A stretch of DNA of 64,000 nt from Escherichia coli. GTDB lineage: Bacteria > Pseudomonadota > Gammaproteobacteria > Enterobacterales > Enterobacteriaceae. The DNA lies in the NCBI RefSeq assembly GCF_041248615.1, contig NZ_CP158426.1; one strand, written 5' to 3'. Within the stretch, counting starts at the first letter, position 1. Each line of letters opens with the position of its first letter. The position numbers and the translations under genes are program-made. Positions 8,121 through 51,872 of the stretch are shown piece by piece. The notes under the pieces are model-generated. The model had not been told where the DNA came from. It did not search any database and saw only the letters and a program-made list of their open reading frames with translations.

Positions 8121-10361
8121 ATGAACAAGAAGATTCATTCCCTAGCCTTGTTGGTCAATCTGGGGATTTATGGGGTAGCGCAGGCACAAGAGCCGACCGA
8201 TACTCCTGTTTCACATGACGATACCATTGTCGTTACCGCCGCCGAGCAGAACTTGCAGGCACCTGGCGTTTCGACCATCACCGCAGATGAAATCCGCAAA
8301 AACCCGGTTGCCCGCGATGTGTCGGAGATCATCCGTACCATGCCAGGCGTTAACCTGACCGGCAACTCCACCAGTGGTCAGCGTGGTAATAACCGCCAGA
8401 TTGATATTCGCGGCATGGGTCCGGAAAACACGCTGATTTTGATTGACGGCAAACCGGTAAGCAGCCGTAACTCGGTGCGTCAGGGCTGGCGTGGCGAGCG
8501 CGATACCCGTGGTGATACTTCCTGGGTGCCACCTGAAATGATTGAACGTATTGAAGTTCTGCGTGGTCCGGCAGCTGCGCGTTATGGCAACGGCGCGGCG
8601 GGCGGCGTGGTTAACATCATTACCAAAAAAGGCAGCGGTGAGTGGCACGGCTCCTGGGACGCTTATTTCAATGCGCCAGAACATAAAGAGGAAGGTGCCA
8701 CTAAACGCACCAACTTCAGCCTGACCGGTCCGCTGGGCGACGAATTCAGCTTCCGCTTGTATGGCAACCTCGACAAAACCCAGGCTGACGCGTGGGATAT
8801 CAACCAGGGCCATCAGTCCGCGCGTGCCGGAACGTATGCCACGACGTTACCAGCCGGGCGCGAAGGGGTGATCAATAAAGATATTAACGGCGTGGTGCGC
8901 TGGGACTTCGCACCATTACAATCGCTGGAACTGGAAGCAGGTTACAGCCGCCAGGGTAACCTGTATGCGGGCGATACCCAGAACACCAACTCTGACTCCT
9001 ATACCCGCTCGAAATATGGCGATGAAACCAACCGTCTGTATCGCCAGAACTACTCGCTGACCTGGAACGGCGGCTGGGATAACGGCGTGACCACCAGCAA
9101 CTGGGTGCAGTACGAACACACCCGTAACTCGCGTATTCCGGAAGGTCTGGCGGGCGGTACCGAAGGGAAATTTAACGAAAAAGCGACACAGGATTTCGTC
9201 GATATCGATCTCGATGACGTGATGCTGCACAGCGAAGTTAACCTGCCGATTGATTTCCTCGTTAACCAGACGCTGACGCTGGGTACGGAGTGGAATCAGC
9301 AGCGGATGAAGGATTTAAGTTCCAACACCCAGGCGCTCACTGGGACGAATACCGGCGGTGCTATTGATGGCGTGAGTGCCACCGACCGTAGCCCGTATTC
9401 AAAAGCAGAAATTTTCTCGCTATTTGCCGAAAACAATATGGAGCTGACTGACAGCACCATCGTAACGCCGGGGCTGCGTTTCGATCATCACAGCATTGTT
9501 GGCAATAACTGGAGTCCGGCTCTAAACATATCGCAAGGTTTAGGCGATGACTTCACGCTGAAAATGGGCATTGCCCGTGCTTATAAAGCGCCGAGTCTGT
9601 ACCAGACTAATCCAAACTACATTCTCTATAGTAAAGGTCAGGGCTGCTATGCCAGCGCGGGCGGCTGCTATCTGCAAGGTAATGATGACCTGAAAGCGGA
9701 AACCAGCATCAACAAAGAGATTGGTCTGGAGTTCAAACGCGACGGCTGGCTGGCGGGCGTCACCTGGTTCCGTAACGATTATCGCAATAAGATTGAAGCG
9801 GGCTATGTGGCTGTAGGGCAAAACGCAGTCGGCACCGATCTCTATCAGTGGGATAACGTACCGAAAGCGGTGGTTGAAGGTCTGGAAGGATCGTTAAACG
9901 TACCGGTTAGCGAAACGGTGATGTGGACCAATAACATCACTTATATGCTGAAGAGTGAAAACAAAACCACGGGCGACCGTTTGTCGATCATCCCGGAGTA
10001 TACGTTGAACTCAACGCTGAGCTGGCAGGCACGGGAAGATTTGTCGATGCAAACAACCTTCACCTGGTACGGCAAGCAGCAGCCGAAGAAGTACAACTAT
10101 AAAGGTCAGCCAGCGGTTGGACCGGAAACCAAAGAAATCAGCCCGTACAGCATTGTTGGCCTGAGCGCGACCTGGGATGTGACGAAGAATGTCAGTCTGA
10201 CCGGCGGCGTGGACAACCTGTTCGACAAACGTTTGTGGCGTGCGGGTAATGCCCAGACCACGGGCGATCTGGCAGGAGCCAACTATATCGCCGGTGCCGG
10301 GGCGTATACCTATAACGAGCCGGGACGTACGTGGTATATGAGCATTAATACTCACTTCTGA
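8121..10361 (+). CDS. fepA: TonB-dependent ferric enterobactin outer membrane receptor
   Basis: 746 aa from MNKKIHSLALLVNLGIYGVAQA signal peptide; TonB box DTIVVTA; C-terminal Phe; track ORF starts at an upstream in-frame GTG. Confidence 0.97.
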   Translation: MNKKIHSLALLVNLGIYGVAQAQEPTDTPVSHDDTIVVTAAEQNLQAPGVSTITADEIRKNPVARDVSEIIRTMPGVNLTGNSTSGQRGNNRQIDIRGMGPENTLILIDGKPVSSRNSVRQGWRGERDTRGDTSWVPPEMIERIEVLRGPAAARYGNGAAGGVVNIITKKGSGEWHGSWDAYFNAPEHKEEGATKRTNFSLTGPLGDEFSFRLYGNLDKTQADAWDINQGHQSARAGTYATTLPAGREGVINKDINGVVRWDFAPLQSLELEAGYSRQGNLYAGDTQNTNSDSYTRSKYGDETNRLYRQNYSLTWNGGWDNGVTTSNWVQYEHTRNSRIPEGLAGGTEGKFNEKATQDFVDIDLDDVMLHSEVNLPIDFLVNQTLTLGTEWNQQRMKDLSSNTQALTGTNTGGAIDGVSATDRSPYSKAEIFSLFAENNMELTDSTIVTPGLRFDHHSIVGNNWSPALNISQGLGDDFTLKMGIARAYKAPSLYQTNPNYILYSKGQGCYASAGGCYLQGNDDLKAETSINKEIGLEFKRDGWLAGVTWFRNDYRNKIEAGYVAVGQNAVGTDLYQWDNVPKAVVEGLEGSLNVPVSETVMWTNNITYMLKSENKTTGDRLSIIPEYTLNSTLSWQAREDLSMQTTFTWYGKQQPKKYNYKGQPAVGPETKEISPYSIVGLSATWDVTKNVSLTGGVDNLFDKRLWRAGNAQTTGDLAGANYIAGAGAYTYNEPGRTWYMSINTHF

Positions 10362-10400
10362 TGCTAACGTCAGATTGTTGACAAAGTGCGCGTAGTTCAT

Positions 10401-10499
10401 GCCGGATGCGGCGTGAACGCCTTATCCGGCCTACAAAAATCTTGCCAATTCAATATATTGCAGGACCACGTAGGCCTGATAAGCGTAGCGCATCAGGCA
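10401..10499. repeat. REP/BIME element: two inverted REP units (gccggatgcggcgtgaacgccttatccggcctac and gtaggcctgataagcgtagcgcatcaggca)
   Basis: Canonical enterobacterial REP palindromes in the fepA-entD intergenic region. Confidence 0.6.
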
Positions 10500-10535
10500 G
10501 TTTTGCGTTTGTCATCATTCTCTAATATGGTTGAC

Positions 10536-11156
10536 ATGAAAACTACGCATACCTCCCTCCCCTTTGTAGGACATACGCTGCATTTTGTTGAGTTTGATCC
10601 GGCGAGTTTTCGCGAGCAGGATTTACTCTGGCTGCCACACTACGCGCAACTGCAACACGCTGGACGTAAACGTAAAACAGAGCATTTAGCCGGACGGATC
10701 GCTGCAGTTTATGCGCTGCGGGAATATGGCTATAAATGTGTGCCCGCAATCGGCGAGCTACGCCAACCTGTGTGGCCTGCGGGGGTATACGGCAGCATTA
10801 GTCACTGTGGGACTACGGCATTAGCCGTGGTATCTCGTCAACCAATTGGCATTGATATCGAAGAGATTTTCTCTGTACAAACCGCAAGAGAATTGACAAA
10901 CAACATTATTACACCAGCAGAACACGAGCGACTCGCAGAATGCGGTTTAACCTTTTCTCTGGCGCTGACACTGGCATTTTCCGCCAAAGAGAGCGCATTT
11001 AAGGCATCGGAGAGACAAACTGATGCAGGATTTCTGGATTATCAGATAATTAGCTTGAATAAACAGCAGATCATCATTCGACTAGAGGATGAGCAGTTTG
11101 CTGTGCACTGGCAGATAAAAGAAAAGATAGTCATAACGCTGTGCCAACACGATTAA
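10536..11156 (+). CDS. entD: Enterobactin synthase phosphopantetheinyl transferase
   Basis: 206 aa from MKTTHTSLPF within the 256-aa track ORF; PPTase motifs GIDIEE and FSAKESAFK. Confidence 0.9.
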   Translation: MKTTHTSLPFVGHTLHFVEFDPASFREQDLLWLPHYAQLQHAGRKRKTEHLAGRIAAVYALREYGYKCVPAIGELRQPVWPAGVYGSISHCGTTALAVVSRQPIGIDIEEIFSVQTARELTNNIITPAEHERLAECGLTFSLALTLAFSAKESAFKASERQTDAGFLDYQIISLNKQQIIIRLEDEQFAVHWQIKEKIVITLCQHD

Positions 11157-11277: not shown

Positions 11278-11430
11278 CTACTTCTTCGGTTCGTAAGCGA
11301 GAACAGCCTTAAACTCAATATTACGTTCCTTCACCGTAAACTCACACAGCGAGTCTCCGACCAGAAGCGTAAATCCCAGCACCGTTAAACACAGCACTAT
11401 GACTGCCACAAGGGCATATTTCGTCAGCAT
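11278..11430 (-). CDS. hokE: Hok-family small membrane toxin (type I toxin-antitoxin), copy 1
   Basis: 50 aa [50 protein letters not shown]; single TM helix plus conserved Hok C-terminus. Confidence 0.85.
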
Positions 11431-11575
11431 GTTTATATTGCCTCCATGCGAAGAAGGGACTACCATCCGAGTTGTTGAGGTTCGGAGTGGCAGCCCCAGG
11501 ATTGATAGAAATATCTCCTGGGGCTTCATCTTTCCAGACCTCAGAGTTAACCTGAAACCGGAAAGCTTCAGGCAC
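11342..11575 (-). CDS. mok-like overlapping reading frame of hok copy 1
   Basis: 77-aa ORF starting upstream of hok and ending inside it in a different frame, as in canonical hok/mok/sok loci. Confidence 0.4.
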
Positions 11576-11780
11576 CCGCTGTTATCTTACCCTTCCTTAG
11601 CAAAATAACTGTTTATTTATACAGCAAGTCCTGTTTCGGACTTCTGTTGGCAACACTCGTTATTGCTCGTAAAACGAAATCGCCCGCAGCCATCACTGAC
11701 CACGGGCGAAAGTGTAAAGCAGGTGCCTTACCACCCTGACCTGACAACCGGATATGCGGGGATTACTCCCCGCACAACGG

Positions 11781-11933
11781 CTACTTCTTCGGTTCGTAAG
11801 CGAGAACAGCCTTAAACTCAATATTACGTTCCTTCACCGTAAACTCACACAGCGAGTCTCCGACTAGAAGCGTAAATCCCAGTACCGTCAAACACAGCAC
11901 TATGACTGCCACAAGGGCATATTTCGTCAGCAT
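11781..11933 (-). CDS. hokE: Hok-family small membrane toxin, copy 2 (identical 50-aa protein; in this copy the upstream mok-like frame is fused in frame, track ORF 11781-12077)
   Basis: Same 50-aa Hok sequence; 98-aa extended ORF in track. Confidence 0.85.
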
Positions 11934-12364
11934 GTTTATATTGCCTCCATGCGAAGAAGGGACTACCATCCAAATTGTCTGGTTTGGAGTGGCAGCCCCA
12001 GGGTTGATAGAAATATCTCCTGGGGCTTCATCTTTCCAGACCTCAGAGTTAACCTGAAACCGGAAAGCTTCAGGCACCCGCCGTTATCTTACCCTTCTTC
12101 AGCAAAATAGCTGTTTATTTATACAGTGAGTCCTGTTTCGGACTTCTCACTCCTCATTTGATCAACTGAAGCTGAACCCGTTTTTTTCTGCATGCCTCAA
12201 TCGTCAAAATTCTTCGCCACCAGTCCGCACTGCCATAACTTGTCATATTGCAAAATGTAGCCAATTTGCTTCAGTCACCATCATCAAAAAAAGAAACATT
12301 CCAGAACTTCCGCATCTCGCCCAGTCGCTCCCACTTCTATACTGAATAGAAAACGCCAACATAA

Positions 12365-51795: not shown

Positions 51796-51872
51796 TGGCG
51801 CGCCCTGCAGGATTCGAACCTGCGGCCCACGACTTAGAAGGTCGTTGCTCTATCCAACTGAGCTAAGGGCGC
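51796..51872 (-). tRNA. argU: tRNA-Arg (anticodon UCU), full length, 3' CCA encoded
   Basis: 77-nt cloverleaf on minus strand: GCGCCCTTAGCTCAGTTGGATAGAGCAACGACCTTCTAAGTCGTGGGCCGCAGGTTCGAATCCTGCAGGGCGCGCCA. Confidence 0.95.

What the first reader, a model, noticed from the sequence alone, without database searches (positions are those of the whole stretch)
10401..10499. REP/BIME element between fepA and entD
Two inverted REP palindromes lie within the fepA-entD operon intergenic region and may modulate mRNA stability or polarity between the two genes.
Basis: partly seen in the sequence, partly recalled or inferred. Interest (0 to 1): 0.15.

Follow-up and report, generated by a model that had tools for sequence, protein, structure and literature searches.

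The report
Known BIME-1 repeat between fepA and entD
The stretch is a textbook E. coli repeated element, a BIME-1 made of two inverted REP palindromes around an IHF-site linker, sitting between fepA and entD where related bacteria carry a small hairpin; it is real, but ordinary and already known.

Summary
10400-10434 is a Y-type REP and 10470-10499 is an inverted short Z (Z1) REP. They lie tail to tail around a 35-nt L linker that carries an IHF-like site (ATTCAATATATTG). This is the architecture of a BIME-1 (also called RIP or RIB).

The repeat unit is larger than reported. Comparison with 26+ other Escherichia copies, and with empty sites, puts it at about 10372-10522. That is 151 of the 174 spacer bases.

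K-12 carries the same element, with 3 differences. About 98.5% of complete E. coli genomes have it here. Sixty-six E. coli genomes, E. fergusonii and Citrobacter instead have a 49-50-nt spacer. That spacer holds a GC-rich hairpin of about 26 nt whose stem changes in a compensatory way.

Published Term-seq data for K-12 place an RNA 3' end inside the element (equivalent to window 10489). This is 3 nt past a predicted long hairpin in which the two REP tails pair across L.

The most likely role is a structured barrier on the fepA-entD mRNA that makes a stable fepA 3' end and limits entD expression. IHF binding to the DNA is a family property and was not tested at this locus.

Novelty: already known. 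Interest is low.

The parts
8121..10361 (+). fepA coding sequence (upstream gene of the operon); stop codon TGA at 10359-10361
   Evidence: 100% match to annotated fepA of strain KE55 and 99.5% aa identity to K-12 FepA
10372..10522 (+). Whole BIME-1 repeat unit (151 bp). It starts 10 nt after the fepA stop and ends 13 nt before the entD ATG
   Evidence: The boundaries come from two sources: the alignment of 30 Escherichia copies and empty-site alleles whose shared flanks end at TGCTAACG| and resume at |TAATAT. The window copy matches the consensus of the other copies at 137/151 positions
10372..10399 (+). Left outer flank of the unit (AGATTGTTGACAAAGTGCGCGTAGTTCA); an imperfect inverted repeat of the right outer flank
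   Evidence: Conserved in other copies (25/28 match to the consensus). Inverted repeat I2, 10372-10385 / 10508-10521, is 86% complementary
10400..10434 (+). Y-type REP (palindromic unit). On this strand it is in the 'iREP' orientation and ends in CTAC
   Evidence: 35/35 match to the family consensus. Hairpin of -21.3 kcal/mol, z = -4.6. Matches the Y half of Rfam naRNA4 at 38 bits on the - strand
10435..10469 (+). L linker (35 nt) between the two REP tails
   Evidence: Rfam RF02751 ES036/CssrF hit at 10436-10477, 42.2 bits against a gathering score of 37.6. blastn finds the linker at a median of 8 places per E. coli genome
10447..10459 (+). IHF-consensus-like site ATTCAATATATTG (8 of the 9 specified positions of WATCAANNNNTTR)
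   Evidence: Read from the sequence. The same core is in the Rfam ES036 consensus AAUUCAAUAAAUUG. The exact consensus does not match here. Binding was not tested
10470..10499 (+). Short Z-type (Z1) REP in the 'REP' orientation, starting with GTAG
   Evidence: 30/30 match to the family consensus. 13 nt lie between GCCTGA and TCAGGC, against 20 nt in the Z2 half of the Rfam naRNA4 consensus. Hairpin of -12.9 kcal/mol
10489..10489 (+). Position equivalent to the mapped RNA 3' end of K-12 (MG1655 610126, minus strand)
   Evidence: Adams et al. 2021 (PMC7815308), supplementary files 1 and 3, sheet M63 0.4, average 31,462 reads. Coordinates were transferred through the gap-free spacer alignment
10500..10522 (+). 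Right outer flank of the unit (GTTTTGCGTTTGTCATCATTCTC)
   Evidence: Conserved in other copies (19/23 match to the consensus)
10536..11156 (+). entD coding sequence (downstream gene). There is an alternative in-frame ATG at 10527 and no good Shine-Dalgarno sequence
   Evidence: Annotation of the identical KE55 region; sequence read

Best explanation
This is a single BIME-1 (also called RIP or RIB). It consists of a Y REP and a Z1 REP placed tail to tail around the conserved L linker with its IHF-type site, plus conserved outer flanks, about 151 bp in all. It is one copy of a family dispersed through Escherichia genomes. By published work the family is handled by the REP-associated tyrosine transposase (TnpA_REP / RAYT).

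Shown here: at this locus the unit occupies the place where E. fergusonii, Citrobacter and about 1% of E. coli carry a small GC-rich intercistronic hairpin.

Inferred mechanism: the element is transcribed within the Fur-regulated fepA-entD mRNA and folds into a very stable structure. The predicted preferred fold has one hairpin made from the left flank and the Y head (10395-10418). It has a second, long hairpin in which the Y tail pairs with the Z1 tail across L (10419-10486). This structure stops 3'-to-5' exonucleases, and possibly some transcribing polymerases. The result is a stable fepA message ending at about 10489 and less entD message than fepA message.

IHF binding to L on the DNA is a property of the family. 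It is expected here but not shown.
For: Identity:
- The sequence and arrangement are as described.
- REP tails are exact and occur only here in the window.
- Y matches the consensus of about 24 other Escherichia copies 35/35, Z1 30/30, and the whole unit 137/151. All those copies share the order flank-Y-L-Z1-flank.
- The Rfam ES036 (L motif) hit is above the gathering score.
- The element is dispersed at high copy number.
- Published definitions match: BIME-1 is one Y plus one Z1, single copy, with a long conserved L that often carries an IHF site, about 140 bp, and is present or absent among isolates (PMC3333891; PMC1187871).
- K-12 has the same element, with 3 differences in 151 nt.

Mechanism:
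- A Term-seq 3' end maps at MG1655 610126(-), equal to window 10489, in minimal medium. No other 3' end is listed for fepA.
- The end lies 3 nt past the base of the predicted inter-REP hairpin 10419-10486.
- That fold beats local REP hairpins by 3-8 kcal/mol for the full element and by 10-14 kcal/mol for RNA ending at 10489. The inter-REP pair probability is above 0.99.
- Empty-site relatives keep a -23 to -26 kcal/mol hairpin at the same spot, in four compensatory stem versions.
- The BIME differs at 0-3 of 151 positions between E. coli and a cryptic Escherichia clade, while fepA third codon positions differ by 15% (P about 7e-8).
- No promoter-like or intrinsic-terminator-like site lies in 10200-10700.
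Against: - No experiment on this locus was available apart from the 3' end map.
- The 3' end could come from endonuclease cleavage. It was seen in one condition only.
- At another BIME-1 (near yajD) the Term-seq 3' end lies after the complete Z1 REP, not inside it, so the inter-REP reading is not general.
- The family alignment shows almost no covariation and cannot separate local REP hairpins from the inter-REP fold.
- Sixty-six E. coli genomes and E. fergusonii do without the BIME, so it is dispensable as such.
- The high conservation could reflect gene conversion among copies, or recombination, rather than selection at this locus.
- The IHF site has one mismatch to the textbook consensus, and binding was not tested.
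Confidence: 0.7

Rival explanations
1. Passenger repeat. The BIME-1 is a selfish or neutral insertion that happened to land in, or be exchanged for, the intercistronic hairpin. Any effect on fepA-entD expression is incidental and not selected.
For: BIME-1 elements are typically present or absent among isolates (PMC1187871). Here 66 E. coli genomes, E. fergusonii and Citrobacter lack it and keep an intact operon. The hairpin allele and the BIME allele sit on closely related haplotypes: fepA is 98.1% and entD 96.3% identical between the window and strain 2016C-3878.
Against: The element is far more conserved than neighbouring synonymous sites across Escherichia clades. It replaces a conserved structure rather than sitting beside it. 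It coincides with a mapped RNA 3' end. About 98.5% of E. coli genomes carry it.
Confidence: 0.3
2. DNA-level element. The main role is on the chromosome. IHF bends the DNA at the L motif, and the REPs are also bound by DNA polymerase I, gyrase or HU. On this view the element acts as a nucleoid or topological landmark at the end of a highly induced gene, not through RNA.
For: The L linker carries the family's IHF-type core. The literature states that the BIME-1 L linker frequently carries an IHF site (PMC3333891). IHF binding to RIB/RIP elements was reported in 1993 (cited; known to me from memory, paper not held).
Against: No binding data for this copy could be retrieved; the IHF ChIP supplement is not held. 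The short hairpins of relatives at the same place have no IHF-like site, so what is conserved across taxa is a structure rather than an IHF site. This role is not exclusive of the RNA role.
Confidence: 0.25
3. Transcription stop. The element ends the fepA transcript, by Rho-dependent or structure-dependent attenuation, and entD is expressed mainly from elsewhere.
For: An RNA 3' end lies inside the element. BIMEs have been reported to attenuate transcription (Espeli et al. 2001, cited; content from memory).
Against: There is no intrinsic-terminator-like site (no T run) and no promoter-like site for entD in 10200-10700. No Rho termination region with a coordinate in this spacer is listed in the Adams data set, although that experiment was done in LB, where fepA is repressed. 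Published work treats fepA-entD as one Fur-regulated operon (PMC10763504).
Confidence: 0.12
4. Independent small RNA gene (ES036/CssrF), as the Rfam hit would suggest.
For: The Rfam RF02751 hit is above its gathering score.
Against: The 43-nt model covers the L linker plus the GTAGGCCT start of the Z1 REP, so the match shows only that this copy carries the repeat's linker. There is no promoter-like site. The hit lies inside an operon transcript, and its 3' boundary (10477) does not match the mapped 3' end (10489).
Confidence: 0.03
5. REP-mediated translational down-regulation of fepA, through ribosome stalling at a REP close to the stop codon.
For: REPs within 15 nt of a stop codon are discussed as translational regulators (PMC12306157 abstract). 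The predicted outermost helix of the whole spacer starts 5 nt after the stop codon.
Against: The Y REP stem starts 40 nt after the fepA stop codon (10401 against 10361), outside the published 15-nt rule. The outer-flank pairing is only 63% maintained in the family.
Confidence: 0.03

Closest known systems
BIME-1 (also described as RIP or RIB elements) of E. coli
   Same: One Y and one Z1 REP in inverse orientation, tail to tail. A long conserved L linker with an IHF-type core. A single unit of about 140-150 bp. Extragenic position at the 3' side of a gene. Presence/absence polymorphism among strains.
   Different: Nothing structural. The IHF core has the family's usual one-base departure from WATCAANNNNTTR. 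Binding at this copy is untested.
REP stem-loops that stabilise upstream mRNA in operons (the malE-malF case; from memory, paper not held)
   Same: Intercistronic position inside an operon whose upstream gene is needed in much larger amounts than the downstream one. A stable structure. An RNA 3' end mapped at the structure.
   Different: The mapped end here lies inside the second REP. It fits pairing between the two REPs across L rather than two separate REP hairpins. No half-life data exist for this locus.
BIME-2 (Y + Z2 arrays, e.g. REP325 / naRNA4)
   Same: It shares the Y REP. The Y half of Rfam naRNA4 aligns at 38 bits.
   Different: The Z unit here is the short form (13 nt, not 20 nt, between GCCTGA and TCAGGC). 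The linker is L, not S/s/l. There is no tandem iteration. The score is below the naRNA4 gathering score (38.2 against 59.5).
Intercistronic GC-rich hairpins of E. fergusonii and Citrobacter fepA-entD
   Same: Same position between the same genes, and a similar or greater predicted stability of the RNA structure.
   Different: They are unrelated in sequence, about 26 nt instead of 151 nt, not repeated in the genome, and have no IHF-like core.
Rfam RF02751 ES036 (CssrF) 'sRNA'
   Same: The window sequence 10436-10477 scores above the family's gathering threshold.
   Different: The model corresponds to the L linker of BIME-1 plus the first bases of the Z1 REP. Nothing here indicates an independently transcribed sRNA.

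Membership tests
BIME-1 (RIP/RIB) | Two REPs (palindromic units) in inverse orientation, one Y type and one Z1 type | tested here: met
   Y at 10400-10434 and Z1 at 10470-10499. They match the consensus of other L-linked Escherichia copies 35/35 and 30/30. The Z unit is the short form, unlike the Z2 half of the naRNA4 consensus. Definition from PMC3333891 and PMC1187871.
BIME-1 (RIP/RIB) | Conserved GTAG / CTAC tetranucleotide at the foot of each REP, and an imperfect stem with an internal mismatch | tested here: met
   CTAC at 10431-10434 and GTAG at 10470-10473. The Y stem has an unpaired position on each side, 10409 and 10422. Feature as described in PMC3333891.
BIME-1 (RIP/RIB) | Long, conserved L linker between the REP tails, carrying an IHF consensus | tested here: met
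   35-nt linker. Rfam ES036 (L motif) scores 42.2 bits against a gathering score of 37.6. ATTCAATATATTG matches 8 of the 9 specified positions of WATCAANNNNTTR, the same core as the family consensus.
BIME-1 (RIP/RIB) | Occurs as a single unit, not as a tandem array | tested here: met
   Only two REP tails are present in the whole 64-kb window, both in this unit.
BIME-1 (RIP/RIB) | Extragenic, many dispersed copies in the genome | tested here: met
   It lies between the fepA stop and the entD start. The 301-nt query gives a median of 40 places per genome (capped). The linker alone gives a median of 8 places per genome. There are 4-8 exact L cores per genome in five Escherichia species.
BIME-1 (RIP/RIB) | IHF actually binds the L motif | not testable with these tools
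   The 1993 binding papers and the IHF ChIP-seq supplement are not held.
BIME-2 | Y and Z2 REPs with short S / s / l linkers, in tandem copies | tested here: not met
   The Z unit is the short form, the linker is L, and there is one unit only. The best naRNA4 hit scores 38.2 bits, below its gathering score of 59.5, and covers only the Y half.
Intrinsic (Rho-independent) terminator | GC-rich hairpin followed at once by a run of T | tested here: not met
   No terminator-like sites in 10200-10700. The bases after the hairpins are GCGCATCAGG and GTTTTGCG.
REP translational regulators | REP within 15 nt downstream of the stop codon | tested here: not met
   The Y REP stem begins 40 nt after the last base of the fepA stop codon. 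Rule as given in the PMC12306157 abstract.
Rfam RF02751 ES036/CssrF sRNA | Score at or above the gathering threshold | tested here: met
   42.2 against 37.6 bits. However, the model covers the L linker plus the first bases of the Z1 REP, so meeting it says 'BIME-1 linker', not 'independent sRNA gene'.

The most novel reading that the evidence does not exclude
The BIME-1 has been co-opted. It took over the job of an older intercistronic hairpin that sets the FepA:EntD expression ratio. It does this through a fold in which the two REP tails pair across the L linker, not through two separate REP hairpins. The BIME allele and the hairpin allele that still segregate in E. coli (about 98.5% against 1.2% of complete genomes) would then be a natural expression polymorphism of the enterobactin system.
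Probability: 0.3. Interest if true: 0.35.

Novelty: already known. Interest (0 to 1): 0.15.

Why it matters
It matters little as a discovery. REP/BIME elements are among the oldest known bacterial repeats, and the same copy is present in E. coli K-12.

Its value is as a clean, well-bounded example:
- The insertion boundaries are exact.
- An ancestral hairpin was replaced at the same spot.
- Both alleles still occur in natural E. coli.
- A published 3' end map exists for the locus.

Together these make the old question of whether REP elements have a job in operon expression directly testable at one locus, with natural controls.

Tried and rejected
- The promoter and terminator scan of 10200-10700 found nothing. 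I therefore rejected both an intrinsic terminator and an internal entD promoter inside the element.
- The exact IHF consensus WATCAANNNNTTR does not hit the linker; the site has one mismatch.
- The Rfam ES036 hit was considered as an independent sRNA and rejected, because the model covers the repeat's L linker plus the start of the Z1 REP.
- The local RefSeq copy of NC_000913.3 lists no repeat feature in this spacer, so it could not confirm the K-12 REP annotation that I recall from memory.
- A literature search for 'ES036' returned only grant numbers.
- Searches for fepA/entD with REP returned nothing specific.
- The 1991 and 1993 BIME/RIB papers are not held.
- The IHF ChIP-seq supplement and the Dar & Sorek Term-seq supplement are not held.
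- Covariation analysis on 26 family copies gave only 0-2 double changes per helix, so it cannot choose between the local REP fold and the inter-REP fold. My first outer-flank register in that call was wrong and was redone, which gave only 63% pairing.
- My first constrained fold used a wrong register for Z1 and was redone.
- The genome-collection scan with the exact L core also returned about 17 chance matches in unrelated AT-rich genomes. I ignored them.

Full report
**What is in the sequence**

The window matches E. coli. A 301-nt query around the finding is 100% identical to strain KE55 and 95.7% identical to K-12. By identity to annotated genomes, fepA is 8121-10361 and entD is 10536-11156, both on the + strand. 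This leaves a 174-nt spacer.

Within the spacer there are three parts:
- 10400-10434 reads TGCCGGATGCGGCGTGAACGCCTTATCCGGCCTAC.
- 10470-10499 reads GTAGGCCTGATAAGCGTAGCGCATCAGGCA. These are two REP palindromes in inverse orientation, joined tail to tail.
- The 35 nt between them contain ATTCAATATATTG. This matches the IHF consensus WATCAANNNNTTR at 8 of its 9 specified positions. The exact consensus does not match.

**Is it more than chance?**

- The conserved REP tail CTTATCMGGCCTAC occurs exactly twice in 64 kb, both times here. Shuffles give 0.42 matches even with two mismatches allowed. A looser head-and-tail pattern finds nothing else.
- Each REP, the 111-nt element and the whole spacer fold far better than shuffled controls. 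The z-scores are -4.6, -2.8, -4.9 and -5.5.
- The sequence is dispersed. The linker alone hits a median of 8 places.

**Formal family tests**

- Rfam reports the linker as RF02751 ES036/CssrF at 42.2 bits, above the gathering score of 37.6. Its consensus is AAAuUUGUGCAAAUUCAAUAAAUUGCAGGAaAUACGUAGGCCU.
- The Y REP aligns with the Y half of naRNA4 (REP325) at 38 bits, below that family's threshold. This is as expected, because the second half does not fit. The naRNA4 Z2 unit has 20 nt between GCCUGA and UCAGGC. Here there are 13 nt, the short Z form.
- A scan of one genome per species for the exact L core AATTCAATANATTGCAGGA returned 50 loci. Thirty-one were in Escherichia (E. coli, E. albertii, E. 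whittamii and two unnamed species). Three further BIME-like copies were in other records, and one more lay outside the genus. The rest were chance hits.
- In essentially all Escherichia copies the core is flanked on the left by the same Y REP and on the right by the same short Z REP.
- Aligning 30 copies shows further conserved outer flanks: CAGATTGCTGACAAAGTGCGCTTTGTTCA on the left and GTTTTGCGTTTGTCATCAATCTCA on the right.
- Against the consensus of the other copies, the window copy matches 35/35 in Y, 30/30 in Z1, 28/35 in L, 25/28 and 19/23 in the flanks, and 137/151 overall.
- Published definitions say BIME-1 is one Y plus one Z1, single copy, with a long conserved L that frequently carries an IHF site, and about 140 bp long (PMC3333891; PMC1187871).

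The element is therefore a BIME-1, and the unit spans about 10372-10522, not only 10401-10499.

**Empty sites**

EntD relatives were used to fetch the same locus elsewhere.

- E. fergusonii has a 49-nt spacer. A Citrobacter freundii-group genome has 50 nt. C. rodentium, C. amalonaticus and another Citrobacter-like contig also have short spacers.
- Each short spacer contains one GC-rich hairpin of about 26 nt with a predicted energy of -23 to -26 kcal/mol.
- The stems differ in a compensatory way: TCCTCCCCC/GGGGGAGGA, TCCCTCTCC/GGAGAGGGA, TCCCTCCCC/GGGGAGGGA and ACTCTCCCGC/GCGGGAGAGT.
- The flanks shared with E. coli end at TGCTAACG and resume at TAATAT. This fixes the BIME unit at about 10370-10522, in agreement with the family alignment.
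- Within E. coli, 5345 of 5426 complete genomes carry the BIME allele. Sixty-six carry the E. fergusonii-type hairpin allele in one unbroken match. Strains 2016C-3878 and GF131 are examples.
- The hairpin-allele strain 2016C-3878 is closer to the window in fepA and entD (98.1% and 96.3%) than K-12 is (97.1% and 93.7%). The two alleles therefore sit on closely related backgrounds.
- Cryptic-clade Escherichia (L046, L056) and a metagenome Escherichia (L055) have the BIME.
- Presence/absence polymorphism is a published property of BIME-1 elements in general.

**Conservation**

The BIME of K-12 differs from the window at 3 of 151 positions. The BIMEs of Escherichia sp. MOD1-EC7003 and of L056 differ from the window at the same 3 positions with the same bases, so these three sequences are identical to one another. 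By contrast, fepA third codon positions differ by 15% between the window and those clades, and entD is only 84% identical. At 15% divergence, three or fewer differences in 151 nt has a probability of about 7e-8. This fits constraint, gene conversion among copies, or recent exchange. The data do not separate these.

**How it probably works**

The element lies inside the Fur-regulated fepA-entD operon (PMC10763504). No promoter-like or intrinsic-terminator-like site occurs in 10200-10700.

As RNA, the predicted best fold is not two separate REP hairpins. It has two parts:
- A 10-bp hairpin made from the conserved GTTCA flank and the Y head (10395-10418).
- A long hairpin in which the Y tail pairs with the Z1 tail across L (10419-10486).

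This fold is 3-8 kcal/mol better than enforced local REP hairpins for the full element, and the pair probabilities exceed 0.99.

Published Term-seq data for MG1655 list one 3' end in this spacer. It is at 610126 on the minus strand, 47 nt upstream of entD, with an average of 31,462 reads. It was detected in M63 minimal medium only, and no 3' end is assigned to fepA (PMC7815308 supplements). The spacer has no indels between K-12 and the window, so this position is window 10489.

That position lies inside the Z1 REP but only 3 nt beyond the base of the inter-REP hairpin. For an RNA ending there, the inter-REP fold is 10-14 kcal/mol better than a local Y hairpin.

Taken together with the conserved hairpin at the same place in relatives, the most economical reading is this. 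The structure acts as a barrier that yields a stable fepA 3' end and lowers the amount of message reaching entD. This is inferred, not shown.

Caveats:
- The end could be an endonuclease product.
- At another BIME-1, near yajD, the mapped end lies after the whole Z1 REP.
- Family covariation is too low to choose between the folds.

**Other roles**

- IHF binding at L, and binding of other DNA proteins to REPs, are family properties known from the literature. They could not be checked for this copy.
- The published rule for translational effects of REPs (within 15 nt of the stop codon) is not met, since the Y stem starts 40 nt downstream.
- The Rfam label 'sRNA' reflects the repeat's linker, not an independent gene.

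**Verdict**

The element is an already known kind of object and the same copy as in K-12. From memory, REP sequences between fepA and entD were already noted when entD was sequenced in 1989; those papers could not be read here.

This analysis adds four things:
- The exact unit boundaries.
- The replaced ancestral hairpin.
- The allele frequencies in E. coli.
- The link to a mapped RNA 3' end.

Interest is low.

Noticed in passing
window 11278-11577 and 11781-12079 (- strand): Two tandem copies of the hokE toxin gene, each with a sok-type antitoxin RNA (Rfam sok, 81.9 and 81.7 bits), lie just downstream of entD. E. fergusonii also has two copies, strain 2016C-3878 has one, and K-12 has IS186 at this position.
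   Followed up: partly
window 10536-11156 (entD) compared with 8121-10361 (fepA): entD is unusually divergent among E. coli. Window against K-12 it is 93.7% nt and about 86% aa identical, while fepA is 97.1% nt and 99.5% aa. The last third of entD falls to 70.6% against cryptic-clade Escherichia. The E. fergusonii EntD (90% aa) is closer to the window's than K-12's is. This suggests old allelic classes or recombination downstream of the BIME.
   Followed up: partly
L060 about 500-640 (metagenome contig k141_290953): At the same locus an insertion sequence has replaced the head of the Y REP. Its transposase has rve domains (IS3-type). The junction reads ...GGGGTTCAGTTCAGAACGCCTTATCCGGCCTAC, so the break lies in the Y loop. 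This recalls IS elements that target REP loops (IS1397, from memory). The identity of the IS was not tested.
   Followed up: partly
window 10508-10538: entD has no convincing Shine-Dalgarno sequence, and there is a second in-frame ATG at 10527. The right end of the BIME together with the next 13 nt is predicted to form a small hairpin (10511-10535) that abuts the ATG at 10536. This may add to the low expression of entD.
   Followed up: no
L042 9420-9700 (Escherichia sp. MOD1-EC7003): Two identical BIME-1 units lie in tandem, 130 bp apart. This is unusual for a family described as occurring in single copies.
   Followed up: no
L012 (Desulfosporosinus sp. OT, 262-bp contig): A 262-bp contig filed under a Firmicute genome consists of a typical Escherichia BIME-1 (Y-L-Z1). 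It is most likely contamination of that assembly.
   Followed up: no
whole window 1-64000: This is the only REP/BIME in 64 kb. With 584 REPs reported for K-12 (PMC3333891), about 8 would be expected in a stretch of this size. The region includes a vgrG/Rhs cluster (about 27-38 kb) and the cus operon.
   Followed up: partly
window 51799-51872 (- strand): A tRNA (Rfam, 72 bits) lies about 4.3 kb further along than the tRNA-Arg of strain KE55 would if the two sequences were collinear. The window is therefore not identical to KE55 throughout, and there is an indel somewhere between about 32 kb and 51 kb.
   Followed up: no
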